Notes under the pieces: generated by a model | Seen by the model: only the letters and a program-made list of their open reading frames with translations | Databases searched by the model: none | What the model was told of the DNA's origin: nothing | In this document: piece by piece, positions 83 to 56,686 of the stretch | Numbering within the stretch: position 1 is the first letter of the stretch | Layout of the letters: each line of letters opens with the position of its first letter | Translations under genes and position numbers: made by a program | DNA from: Escherichia coli phage vB_EcoS_Ace | Sequence record: MT833283.1 | Length of the DNA stretch: 64,000 bases | Strand: one strand, 5' to 3'

Positions 83-571
83 TTACATCTCAGCAAGTTC
101 TTGCTCAGTAATTACAGTATTGCATAGAGCATCAACTTCTTCATTACCACGAATACCTGAGTGACCTTTAACCTTAACAAAGGTTGGATTGGTATCATGG
201 AAGTTAATATACTGTTGAGTTAGTTTAAATGCTTCTTGCCAGAGTTCTAGATTAAGAGGAGTTTCACCATCTCCCTTCTTCCAGCCTTTCTTCTGCCAAG
301 ACCACATCCAGCTTTCCATACCATTTTTGCAGTAAGCAGAATCAGTGTAGATAATTACTGGACGATTATCTTTCTTAGTAGACCAACGAAGAACTTCTAC
401 AATTGCAGTAAGTTCCATTTCGTTATTAGTAGTTTTAGGGCTGAAGCCAGATTTAGAGCCAATACGATCATCATTATCATTATAGACAACGAATCCCCAC
501 GCACCTAAACCAGGATTGCCTTTACATGCACCATCTGTATATATGTGGAAAACCGACATTATTTGCTCCAA
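83..571 (-). CDS. rnh: Ribonuclease H
   Basis: 162 aa; N-terminal YTDGAC..GNPG and C-terminal VKGHSG..GNE..D motifs of the RNase H fold. Confidence 0.8.
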   Translation of the reverse strand: MEQIMSVFHIYTDGACKGNPGLGAWGFVVYNDNDDRIGSKSGFSPKTTNNEMELTAIVEVLRWSTKKDNRPVIIYTDSAYCKNGMESWMWSWQKKGWKKGDGETPLNLELWQEAFKLTQQYINFHDTNPTFVKVKGHSGIRGNEEVDALCNTVITEQELAEM

Positions 572-828
572 TCAATTTCAAGCCAAAAACCTTCACGTTG
601 CTCATACTTAGCTTCCACAACATAACCTAGTTTGCTAAGTTTTTGCATGACGCTATTTCTAGCGTTTTCTGAGTATTCAGTTAATCCCTGGATGTGACAA
701 TTAAATTCTTTATCTTTAATAGCTTTGTCAATCTCTACGGCAATAAGTGATTCTAGGTCAATTACTTCCTTTTTAATGCTAGCAATAGTATTTTGTTTTG
801 CTTCTAGAGCAGATAAAAGAATAGACAT
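559..828 (-). CDS. Hypothetical protein (89 aa)
   Basis: ORF overlapping the RNase H start by 13 nt (translational coupling layout); no recognisable motif. Confidence 0.4.
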   Translation of the reverse strand: MSILLSALEAKQNTIASIKKEVIDLESLIAVEIDKAIKDKEFNCHIQGLTEYSENARNSVMQKLSKLGYVVEAKYEQREGFWLEIDWSK

Positions 829-830
829 AT

Positions 831-1409
831 TTATTCTCCAATTACTAAAACATCATGTTGAGAAGATACACCACACATATAATCTGCACAATGCGTAAAA
901 GCCAGATCAATGATTTCAAATATATCATCTACATCTAAATCTGTGGCTCGACAATACGCAATAGCTAAACCTGTACGAATACTGGAAAGTACATCTTCTC
1001 CTCCACAGCCTACACCGGCATATTCAACTTCTAGAATAGAAGCATTAGATTGGAAAATAAAGATTCTTCCTTTGTAGAGCATAATAAATTGTCCCAGATT
1101 AGGTTCAGCATATTTTTCATTTTTCTTTTCGCCAAAATCTTTCTGGTTAAACATATCACGTAATTTAGGTACTATTTCCGTGTATAAATATTTATCATCA
1201 GAAATATCTGCTAAACGTGGTGGTACAGTAAAGCTATGCTCTAGTAATTGTCCCATGTAGAAGGAACTAGTGTATCCGAAGTACAAATCATCAGAGATTT
1301 TGAATACTTTCGGATTTTTAACCAGCAGTTTCGTATAGCCATTAGAACCCATACGATCACCAGCTAAGTATACTTTATCTTTATATTTAAATGCTACTAT
1401 GGCTGTCAT
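831..1409 (-). CDS. Putative Ntn-hydrolase, HslV/proteasome beta-subunit-like peptidase
   Basis: 192 aa; Met-Thr N-terminus followed by AIVAFKYKDKVYLAGD, later GVGCGG; resembles HslV TTIV..AGDGQ and GSGG motifs; by-eye similarity only. Confidence 0.4.
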   Translation of the reverse strand: MTAIVAFKYKDKVYLAGDRMGSNGYTKLLVKNPKVFKISDDLYFGYTSSFYMGQLLEHSFTVPPRLADISDDKYLYTEIVPKLRDMFNQKDFGEKKNEKYAEPNLGQFIMLYKGRIFIFQSNASILEVEYAGVGCGGEDVLSSIRTGLAIAYCRATDLDVDDIFEIIDLAFTHCADYMCGVSSQHDVLVIGE

Positions 1410-1439
1410 TATTAAATCCTTCTGTCAAATTAGAAGTAT

Positions 1440-1468
1440 ATTATATTTAAATTTCACTCAGTAAGCAA
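1440..1468 (-). promoter_or_regulatory. Early promoter TTGCTT-N17-TATAAT embedded in a 15-bp perfect inverted repeat
   Basis: Reverse strand: TTGCTT, 17-nt spacer ACTGAGTGAAATTTAAA, TATAAT; precedes the 831-1409 gene. Confidence 0.55.
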
Positions 1469-1484
1469 ATGAAATTTAAATATA
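1442..1484. repeat. Perfect 15-bp inverted repeat TATATTTAAATTTCA / TGAAATTTAAATATA with 13-bp spacer
   Basis: Arms at about 1442-1456 and 1470-1484 are exact reverse complements; spacer contains the -35 hexamer of the promoter above. Confidence 0.6.
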
Positions 1485-1485
1485 A

Positions 1486-1503
1486 TAGCCCCGAAGGGCT
1501 ATT
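1486..1503 (-). terminator. Hairpin terminator candidate downstream of the membrane protein gene
   Basis: ATAGCCC-CGAA-GGGCTAT stem-loop followed on the minus strand by a T/A-rich run. Confidence 0.4.
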
Positions 1504-1507
1504 TGAA

Positions 1508-1861
1508 TTAGATTATAATCAAGATTATTAGGGCGTATGTCAGATAATGCAGTAACTGATCAAATCCTAAAGCTATCCAAAACTTAGCATCGCTTATAGC
1601 GTATTTACAGCGTTGTGCTTTCCAATAATCTATAATAAAGTGTAGAATTAATTCCATAATAGCTAAAGCTATAGACATTCCTGGTGATGTGAATAGGATT
1701 AGAATTGCAAATGTTAATCCAGCATGTACTAGCGAATGGGTTAATAATGGAAGTTTCCACCCTATTTTATGCGTCTTTCTTAGCATATATGGTGTTTGGA
1801 GTGGATAATCGGCCATAAAATGTTTTAGAAATAATATGACAAATAATAGTATAATTAACAT
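1508..1861 (-). CDS. Hypothetical integral membrane protein
   Basis: 117 aa, at least three strongly hydrophobic segments (LIILLFVILFL, LTFAILILF, ALIILIII). Confidence 0.5.
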   Translation of the reverse strand: MLIILLFVILFLKHFMADYPLQTPYMLRKTHKIGWKLPLLTHSLVHAGLTFAILILFTSPGMSIALAIMELILHFIIDYWKAQRCKYAISDAKFWIALGFDQLLHYLTYALIILIII

Positions 1862-56053: not shown

Positions 56054-56686
56054 TTATTCTTTAACGTAGCCTAAAGCTATCGCAAGTTTTTCTAGTTCAG
56101 AAAGATTACGTTCTTGAGCTGGGACAGCCTTAGAACTTGTTGCAGTAAAAGATTTGCGCCATTCAGTGTAATCGTGGCCATTCATACTCTTAGCGAGGTT
56201 GAACGTTGAGTCCTGATTACAAGGTACAGAAACTACCGAGACTTCGTATAGTTCTAAATCTTTAATAATAAATATGTCAGTAGCTTCATCCCATTCTGCG
56301 TCTAGGCAGCGGAATCCGATACTGAAGGTTTTCAGTACACCGTTTTTAATTAGTGAAAAGATAGCTGGATCAGAACTTTCATAAATCTCGCATTCAATTT
56401 CGAGACCCATTTCAGTAGGATTAAGATCAATACACTTGCCGATTGGACGACGATGGTCGTGGCCGAAAAGAATAATAGGATTTTTCATGTAGTTAGCAAG
56501 TGCATTGGACGTTTTCCATGCCGAAGCAGGAATTACGTCACCAGCGCGATCTTTACTAATTGTATTAGCGAATCCACGGATTTTTACAACACCCTCTTTG
56601 GATTCGCTATCAATAGACTTAATGTAAGCGTCTAAATGAACCGGTGCTGATTTTAACTTGTTATAGTCAATAGCAGCATTTGTCAT
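56054..56686 (-). CDS. Prohead protease (pb11-like)
   Basis: 210 aa, immediately upstream of the capsid gene; His/Ser-containing blocks (ILFGHDHRRPIG). Confidence 0.7.
   Translation of the reverse strand: MTNAAIDYNKLKSAPVHLDAYIKSIDSESKEGVVKIRGFANTISKDRAGDVIPASAWKTSNALANYMKNPIILFGHDHRRPIGKCIDLNPTEMGLEIECEIYESSDPAIFSLIKNGVLKTFSIGFRCLDAEWDEATDIFIIKDLELYEVSVVSVPCNQDSTFNLAKSMNGHDYTEWRKSFTATSSKAVPAQERNLSELEKLAIALGYVKE

What the first reader, a model, noticed from the sequence alone, without database searches (positions are those of the whole stretch)
831..1409. HslV/proteasome-like Ntn-hydrolase inside a nucleotide-metabolism operon
The 192-aa protein starts Met-Thr and continues AIVAFKYKDKVYLAGD, with a later GVGCGG glycine-rich loop, recalling HslV (Thr1 nucleophile, GDGQ and GSGG motifs). 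A proteasome-like peptidase co-transcribed with RNase H and downstream of thyA/frd is unexpected and could act in host-protein turnover or maturation of a phage protein.
Basis: inference. Interest (0 to 1): 0.5.

Follow-up and report, generated by a model that had tools for sequence, protein, structure and literature searches.

The report
Phage-encoded proteasome/HslV-like threonine peptidase
The gene really does encode a small proteasome/HslV-like protease with an intact active site, but such genes are already annotated in about 125 T5-like phage genomes and were described as a phage-borne family in 2021, so only its biological role remains unknown.

Summary

It is not a true HslV. No NCBIfam model matches at E <= 0.01, no HslU-like ATPase is annotated in the parts of two closely related phage genomes that I read, and its closest cellular relatives are in Streptomyces, alpha-proteobacteria and Myxococcota. 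That fits the 'AAH' proteasome-homolog family of Fuchs, Alva and Lupas (2021).

The window is a T5-like Epseptimavirus. The gene is an accessory cassette behind its own T5-type early promoter, followed by an 89-aa ORF and RNase H. Close relatives (S116, AKFV33) lack it.

The peptidase fold and catalytic residues are shown. Ring assembly, ATPase independence, substrates and role are inferred or unknown. The phage has a separate prohead protease, so capsid maturation is unlikely.

Identical or near-identical proteins are already named 'peptidase HslV family' or 'Proteasome subunit', so the finding is already known and of modest interest.

The parts
831..1409 (-). CDS, 192 aa, proteasome-beta/HslV/BPH-like N-terminal-threonine (Ntn) peptidase, AAH-type phage subfamily
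1404..1406 (-). Codon of Thr2, the predicted nucleophile (Thr1 once Met is removed); no propeptide
   Evidence: Translation. All 147 rows of A2 have T here, but those rows were pre-selected to start with MT. The unbiased figure is 160 of the 167 proteins fetched starting with MT. Aligns to Thr1 of HslV
1356..1358 (-). Codon of Asp18 (equivalent to Asp17 of the proteasome/HslV catalytic triad)
   Evidence: Invariant 147/147; aligned to the HslV GD motif
1308..1310 (-). Codon of Lys34 (equivalent to Lys33 of the triad)
   Evidence: Invariant 147/147; aligned to HslV Lys33 in 'KKV'
1257..1277 (-). G45-YTSSFY51: oxyanion-hole Gly plus the family signature G[YF]T[ST]SF[RY]MGQ, at the position where proteasomes bind substrate
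   Evidence: G45 invariant; T47, S49, F50, G53 and Q54 conserved at >=90%. This motif was the pattern that retrieved 367 viral and 391 genomic relatives
1002..1010 (-). G134-C135-G136, equivalent to the GSG loop of HslV (by my numbering from memory, Ser124 of HslV and Ser129 of 20S beta), with Cys in place of Ser
   Evidence: Aligned to the IGSGG loop of HslV. Position 135 is Cys in 98 and Ser in 39 of 147 homologs
1417..1423 (-). Ribosome-binding site AGAAGGA, 7 nt before the ATG
   Evidence: Read directly from the sequence
1440..1468 (-). T5-type early promoter TTGCTT-17 nt-TATAAT(A) directly upstream of the gene
   Evidence: Sequence. Matches the T5 promoter consensus quoted in the AKFV33 annotation, where the homologous site is annotated as a promoter. 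The generic sigma-70 scan missed it because TTGCTT matches TTGACA at only 3 of 6 positions. Conserved in phages that lack the gene
1487..1500 (-). Hairpin AGCCC-TTCG-GGGCT followed by an A/T-rich tract, just after the DUF3307 stop codon; a possible terminator separating the upstream unit
   Evidence: Sequence. It did not meet the terminator scan's T-run rule, so this is only a candidate
559..828 (-). 89-aa ORF of unknown function (phrog_13270), 2 nt downstream of the peptidase gene; also present in phages without the peptidase
83..559 (-). RNase H gene, with an ATG start that overlaps the stop codon of the 89-aa ORF; probably the last gene of the same transcription unit
   Evidence: Pfam RNase_H E 1.1e-30; annotated as 477 nt in relatives; translation

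Best explanation
The gene encodes a catalytically intact member of the proteasome-like Ntn-hydrolase superfamily. It belongs to a compact subfamily of about 180-190 aa without a propeptide, carried by many tailed phages and prophages. This is most probably the 'AAH' family of Fuchs, Alva and Lupas (2021). In this T5-like Epseptimavirus it is an optional cassette inserted directly behind a conserved early promoter, ahead of an 89-aa ORF and RNase H. Shown: the fold; the invariant Thr/Asp/Lys triad and oxyanion Gly; the lack of a propeptide; the promoter and RBS; the presence/absence polymorphism; and the absence of any annotated unfoldase in the parts of two closely related phage genomes that I read. 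Inferred: host methionine aminopeptidase removes Met1 (Thr is a permitted second residue, as in E. coli HslV), exposing Thr as both nucleophile and base-carrying amine; the subunits assemble into stacked rings like BPH and HslV; and the complex cleaves peptides or unfolded proteins early in infection without a phage-encoded ATPase. The role would be auxiliary and dispensable, such as host or defence-protein turnover or proteostasis. The strongly conserved GYTSSF(R/Y)MGQ segment next to the active site suggests a defined substrate preference rather than indiscriminate cleavage.
Against: No enzymatic, structural or genetic data exist for this protein or any close relative. The residue equivalent to Ser129/Ser124, which supports the Thr1 amine in proteasomes and HslV, is Cys here, and its effect on activity is unknown. 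Assignment to AAH rests on length, secondary structure and taxonomic distribution, not on direct comparison with the published AAH reference sequence, which is not available in these tools. Isolated HslV is nearly inactive without HslU (established knowledge), so independence from an ATPase is an assumption.
Confidence: 0.75

Rival explanations
1. It is a functional HslV substitute that docks onto the host's HslU ATPase, forming a hybrid ATP-dependent protease that retargets or boosts host proteolysis during infection.
Against: No NCBIfam model, including any HslV model, matches at E <= 0.01. Identity to HslV in the structural alignment is only 19%. The loop after H2 is 18 residues long (90-107); from memory of the E. 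coli sequence, not measured here, this is longer than in HslV, whose pore loop Fuchs et al. describe as very short. The family is abundant in Streptomyces, and Actinobacteria lack HslV according to Table 1 of Fuchs et al., so dependence on HslU cannot be a general property of the family. The HslU-tail binding pocket could not be examined.
Confidence: 0.12
2. It is a monomeric or small-oligomer, highly specific processing enzyme or transpeptidase, as connectase is within the same superfamily. It would act on one particular host or phage protein rather than as a degradative chamber.
For: The segment after the oxyanion Gly (GYTSSF[R/Y]MGQ) is unusually conserved, which is what a fixed substrate would predict. 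Fuchs et al. note that several new homologs may not form rings. Connectase shows the fold can support ligation.
Confidence: 0.1
3. It matures a virion protein, acting as a prohead or tail protein-processing protease.
For: In many temperate-type phage contigs the homolog lies a few genes from terminase, portal, prohead protease and capsid genes.
Against: This phage has its own prohead protease next to the capsid gene (56054..56686). The gene sits in the early nucleotide-metabolism region behind an early-type promoter. Close relatives with the same virion genes lack it. The contigs where it lies near structural genes also carry a separate prohead protease (cluster 3).
Confidence: 0.03

Closest known systems
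[quoted passage not shown]
   Same: Compact subunit of about 180-190 aa with no propeptide and no C-terminal S12/H5 elements, and with H1-H4 present. It is related to BPH and HslV. It occurs in many phages, and its closest cellular relatives are in Actinobacteria and alpha-proteobacteria, with some Firmicutes, as the paper describes. No AAA+ partner and no informative gene context were found.
   Different: Membership is inferred, because the reference sequence WP_035979212 and the authors' profiles could not be compared here. The T5-like clade has its own substitutions, Tyr instead of the family's Arg at position 51 and Ala3 instead of Cys3.
BPH (beta-proteobacterial proteasome homolog; PDB 5OVS, 5OVU)
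   Different: Only 13-16% identity in the structural alignments. The BPH pore loop is long and highly acidic, whereas the corresponding loop here (90-107) has 4 acidic and 4 basic residues. BPH is a cellular protein and this one is phage-borne.
HslV (ClpQ), the peptidase of the HslUV ATP-dependent protease
   Same: Met-Thr start with Thr1 exposed by Met removal, a GD motif (Asp17), Lys33, an oxyanion Gly, a G-x-G loop at the GSGG position, the same fold and a similar size.
   Different: No NCBIfam model, including any HslV model, matches. Cys replaces the Ser of GSGG. The loops are longer. No hslU gene is annotated in the parts of the related phage genomes that I read. Relatives occur in Actinobacteria, which lack HslUV.
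[quoted passage not shown] 2021
   Same: A phage-borne, group I proteasome-like protein with a conserved active site.
   Different: PPH is about 140 aa and lacks helix H2. This protein is 192 aa and has H2 at residues 71-89. Every viral homolog extracted here is about 177-230 aa or longer.

Membership tests
Proteasome-like Ntn hydrolases (Pfam PF00227; MEROPS T1) | Sequence match to the family model above the curated threshold | tested here: met
   PF00227 38.6 bits against cut-off 22.4, full length
Proteasome-like Ntn hydrolases (Pfam PF00227; MEROPS T1) | Alpha-beta-beta-alpha sandwich fold of proteasome subunits | tested here: met
Proteasome-like Ntn hydrolases (Pfam PF00227; MEROPS T1) | N-terminal Thr nucleophile with Asp17 and Lys33 | tested here: met
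   T2, D18 and K34 are invariant in the 147 aligned homologs and align to HslV T1, D17 and K33. The 147 rows were pre-selected to start with MT; the unbiased figure is 160 of 167 fetched proteins starting with MT
Proteasome-like Ntn hydrolases (Pfam PF00227; MEROPS T1) | Oxyanion-hole Gly (Gly47 in 20S, Gly45 in HslV) | tested here: met
   G45 invariant
Proteasome-like Ntn hydrolases (Pfam PF00227; MEROPS T1) | Ser in the GSG loop (Ser129 in 20S, Ser124 in HslV; numbering from memory) supporting Thr1 | tested here: not met
   Cys135 here. The family has Cys in 98, Ser in 39 and other residues in 10 of 147 homologs. The flanking Gly residues are conserved, so the loop is kept but its side chain differs
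Proteasome-like Ntn hydrolases (Pfam PF00227; MEROPS T1) | Peptide-bond hydrolysis demonstrated | not testable with these tools
   No experimental paper on any phage homolog was found
HslV (ClpQ) proper | Matches an HslV equivalog model | tested here: not met
   No NCBIfam family at E <= 0.01
HslV (ClpQ) proper | Encoded with, or accompanied by, HslU in the same genome | tested here: not met
   No AAA+ unfoldase is annotated in Sepoy 1-50 kb or S133 1-50 kb. Only a ClpP-like serine protease and a prohead protease are annotated. The remaining parts of those genomes were not read. The host's HslU remains a possible partner
HslV (ClpQ) proper | Dodecamer of two hexameric rings with HslU-tail pockets | not testable with these tools
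BPH | Long, highly acidic pore loop; heptameric double ring | tested here: not met
   The loop 90-107 is long but has no net charge (4 acidic, 4 basic). The family's median net charge for this loop is -1. Ring symmetry was not testable
AAH (Fuchs et al. 2021) | Compact group I subunit with H1-H4, no propeptide and no S12/H5 | tested here: met
   Secondary structure of the model; 160 of 167 fetched proteins start with MT
AAH (Fuchs et al. 2021) | Distribution: Actinobacteria, alpha-proteobacteria and many phages | tested here: met
   The best 80 of 391 genomic hits are mostly Streptomyces, Azospirillum, Mesorhizobium, Rhizobium and Polyangiaceae. 367 viral contig hits
AAH (Fuchs et al. 2021) | Clusters with the authors' AAH sequences (reference WP_035979212) | not testable with these tools
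   The reference sequence and the CLANS map are not available here; the held supplement had no occurrences of the search terms
PPH (Fuchs et al. 2021) | About 140 residues, lacking helix H2 | tested here: not met
   192 aa, with H2 at residues 71-89
Phage prohead (capsid maturation) protease | Located in the head module next to the portal and capsid genes; required for the virion | tested here: not met
   The gene lies in the early region. A separate protease sits at 56054..56686 beside the capsid gene. The gene is absent from related phages

The most novel reading that the evidence does not exclude
The phage peptidase is a dedicated counter-defence or host-takeover protease. It would either hijack the host's HslU or act alone on a specific host target, using a conserved substrate channel (GYTSSF[R/Y]MGQ) and a Cys in place of the canonical Ser. 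The natural presence/absence variants among T5-like phages would then correspond to differences in host range or sensitivity to defence systems.
Probability: 0.12. Interest if true: 0.7.

Novelty: already known. Interest (0 to 1): 0.3.

Why it matters
No phage-encoded proteasome homolog has an assigned function, although the family is large: 6638 clusters at 50% identity at E <= 1e-3, with hundreds of matching viral contigs. This copy sits in a lytic E. coli/Salmonella phage group that is easy to manipulate. Natural variants with and without the gene exist, including BASEL-collection phages: TrudiRoth and IrmaTschudi carry it, whereas the alignment to IrisVonRoten skips the region and suggests it does not. 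That makes it a convenient place to test what viral proteasome-like peptidases do and whether they need a host ATPase. As a sequence finding it adds nothing beyond existing annotation.

Tried and rejected
Oligomeric state is therefore untested.

2. A neighbour analysis of 53 non-redundant viral loci found no conserved adjacent partner. The only recurrent genes were capsid, portal, prohead protease, terminase, PhoH and HNH genes a few positions away.

3. Neighbour analysis of 80 bacterial loci was swamped by spurious high-GC ORFs and showed only genus-level synteny in Azospirillum.

4. NCBIfam and PADLOC gave no hits for the protein.

5. Literature searches for functional work on phage HslV-like or proteasome-like proteins found only the 2021 bioinformatic survey and passing genome-paper mentions.

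6. The supplement of Fuchs et al. that is held as text (2,178 characters) had no occurrences of the search terms 'phage', 'AAH', 'PPH' or 'CPH'.

7. PPH membership was considered because many tblastn matches covered only residues 1-144. It was rejected once the full ORFs proved to be 177-230 aa.

8. The + strand ORFs inside the interval (725..898 and 910..1077) are short shadow ORFs with no support.

Full report
**The observation.** Window 831..1409 on the - strand is a 192-aa ORF that begins MTAIVAFKYKDKVYLAGD and carries GVGCGG at residues 132-137. The short + strand ORFs inside the interval are shadow ORFs. The sequence matches Pfam PF00227 (Proteasome) at 38.6 bits against a curated cut-off of 22.4, covering residues 2-189 and model positions 5-188 of 189. 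It also matches PHROG 1040, 'peptidase HslV family', at E 1.9e-21. A single-sequence search of the PDB was only marginal (20S beta7, E 0.012). A profile built from 147 homologs hit HslV at 3.6e-11, BPH at 2e-7 over the full length, and actinobacterial 20S beta subunits.

**Active site.**
- A full HMMER scan of 1.84 billion representatives found 6638 clusters at E <= 1e-3 and 783 at E <= 1e-30.
- In an alignment of 147 members (25-94% identical to the query), M1, T2, D18, K34, G45, G106 and G134 are invariant. These rows were pre-selected to start with MT, so the invariance of M1 and T2 follows partly from the selection.
- T2, D18 and K34 align with Thr1, Asp17 and Lys33 of HslV.
The Ser of that loop (Ser124 in HslV and Ser129 in 20S, numbering from memory) is Cys here, and in the family it is Cys in 98 and Ser in 39 of 147.
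- The stretch after the oxyanion Gly, G[YF]T[ST]SF[RY]MGQ, is a strong family signature. The T5-like clade has Tyr where most members have Arg (position 51).

**Which family.** It is not a true HslV.
- No NCBIfam model matches at E <= 0.01.
- Structural-alignment identity to HslV and BPH is 13-19%.
- Fuchs, Alva and Lupas (2021, PMC8665760) described 22 new proteasome homologs, including the phage-associated group I families PPH, AAH and CPH, which radiate from BPH and HslV.
- PPH is about 140 aa and lacks H2. This protein is 192 aa with H2, and every viral homolog I extracted is 177 aa or longer, so PPH is excluded.
- A scan of one genome per prokaryotic species found 391 relatives. The best 80 are mostly Streptomyces, Azospirillum, Mesorhizobium, Rhizobium, Polyangiaceae and Paraburkholderia, with a few Firmicutes. 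That is the distribution published for AAH.
- I therefore file it as AAH-type.

**Genomic setting.**
- The window is a T5-like Epseptimavirus, 99.5% identical to Salmonella phage Sepoy over the first 3.3 kb.
- The exact protein is QNR52236.1 of E. coli phage vB_EcoS_Ace. Near-identical proteins are named 'peptidase HslV family', 'Proteasome subunit', 'putative proteasome', 'protease' or 'threonine-type endopeptidase'.
- About 125 phage records carry a copy at 90% identity or more, while 435 records match the surrounding region. The gene is therefore accessory.
- In Epseptimavirus S116, window 840-1433 is replaced by an unrelated 261-bp segment with a different small ORF, and the DUF3307 gene is also missing. 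In Tequintavirus AKFV33 the peptidase gene is absent.
- The sequence just upstream (1434-1512) is kept in both. On the - strand it reads as a hairpin AGCCC-TTCG-GGGCT (1500..1487) right after the DUF3307 stop, then TTGCTT-17 nt-TATAAT (1468..1440), then AGAAGGA (1423..1417) 7 nt before the ATG.
- This matches the T5 promoter consensus cited in the AKFV33 record, where the homologous site is annotated as a promoter. The generic scan missed it.
- The gene is thus the first gene of a short early unit (peptidase, 89-aa ORF, RNase H) rather than a simple member of the frd-thyA operon.

**Partners and function.**
- The parts of two close relatives that I read, Sepoy 1-50 kb and S133 1-50 kb, have no annotated AAA+ unfoldase. 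They show a ClpP-like serine protease (outside the window) and a prohead protease. The latter lies in the window at 56054..56686, next to the capsid gene.
- Among 53 non-redundant viral loci, no gene is consistently adjacent to the homolog. The recurrent genes a few positions away are capsid, portal, prohead protease, terminase, PhoH-like and HNH genes. Bacterial contexts were uninformative.
- This agrees with Fuchs et al., who found no AAA+ partner or telling context, and with a jumbo-phage paper that noted HslV-like genes without HslU.
- Because many relatives live in Actinobacteria, which lack HslV according to that paper's Table 1, obligate dependence on HslU cannot be a general family trait.
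- No functional study of any phage homolog was found.

**Mechanism.**
- Shown: a proteasome-fold protein with a complete Thr/Asp/Lys/Gly catalytic set and no propeptide, expressed from its own early-type promoter, dispensable for the phage type, and with no phage-encoded ATPase annotated in the parts of the two related genomes that I read.
- Inferred: host methionine aminopeptidase exposes Thr1; the subunits form BPH/HslV-like stacked rings; and the complex cleaves peptides or unfolded proteins early in infection as an auxiliary factor.
- Rivals: a hybrid protease with host HslU (about 0.12), a connectase-like specific enzyme (about 0.1), and virion maturation (about 0.03).

**Verdict.** The 'HslV' label is only approximate, the 'operon' context is partly wrong, and the finding is not new. 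Interest is modest. The open question is what viral proteasome homologs do, and this phage group would be a convenient system for testing that.

Noticed in passing
window 1434-1512 (compare L001 1601-1679 and L002 1342-1420): A conserved early promoter plus hairpin acts as a fixed 'slot' behind which different cargo sits in different T5-like phages. Here it is the peptidase gene. In S116 it is an unannotated ORF of about 84-98 aa. In AKFV33 the 89-aa ORF homolog follows directly. Records such as S113 and SB10 have an HNH or homing endonuclease annotated somewhere in the matched 3.3-kb region.
   Followed up: partly
window 1439-1487: This promoter region matches its own reverse complement at about 80% in related phages (blastn against L001 and L002). 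It is an imperfect palindrome spanning the -35/-10 region, and its significance is unknown.
   Followed up: no
window 1508-1861 (- strand): A 117-aa DUF3307 membrane protein (Pfam E 3.1e-12; PHROG 2470 'membrane protein', moron/auxiliary category) lies between thyA and the peptidase gene. It is also variably present: absent in S116, present in AKFV33.
   Followed up: partly
window 559-828 (- strand): An 89-aa ORF of unknown function (phrog_13270, E 2e-61) lies between the peptidase and RNase H. It is conserved in T5-like phages whether or not the peptidase is present, so it is not a dedicated partner.
   Followed up: partly
residue 51 and residue 3 of the protein (window codons 1257-1259 and 1401-1403): There are clade-specific substitutions next to the active site. 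The T5-like clade has Tyr51 where 120 of 147 family members have Arg, and Ala3 where 112 of 147 have Cys. This may mean a changed substrate preference.
   Followed up: no
P0033, P0039, P0040, P0048, P0058, P0073; L166 2501-3463 (Vibrio phage VPMCC14): Some family members are 300-390 aa. They carry a long, highly acidic C-terminal extension after the peptidase core, and it had no NCBIfam match (only P0033 was scanned, and only in that library).
   Followed up: partly
Sepoy NC_048760 21515-22114 (outside the window): T5-like phages also encode a ClpP-like 'ATP-dependent protease' (serine protease) in the early region. Carriers of this gene therefore have three proteases: ClpP-like, prohead and proteasome-like. 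No unfoldase of their own is annotated in the parts of the genomes that I read.
   Followed up: no
S133 NC_048011 46419-48089 (should correspond to the window region near 10.5-12.5 kb, not mapped): Two Sir2-like (NAD-dependent deacetylase) genes are annotated in the early region of a close relative. The corresponding window ORFs were not examined.
   Followed up: no
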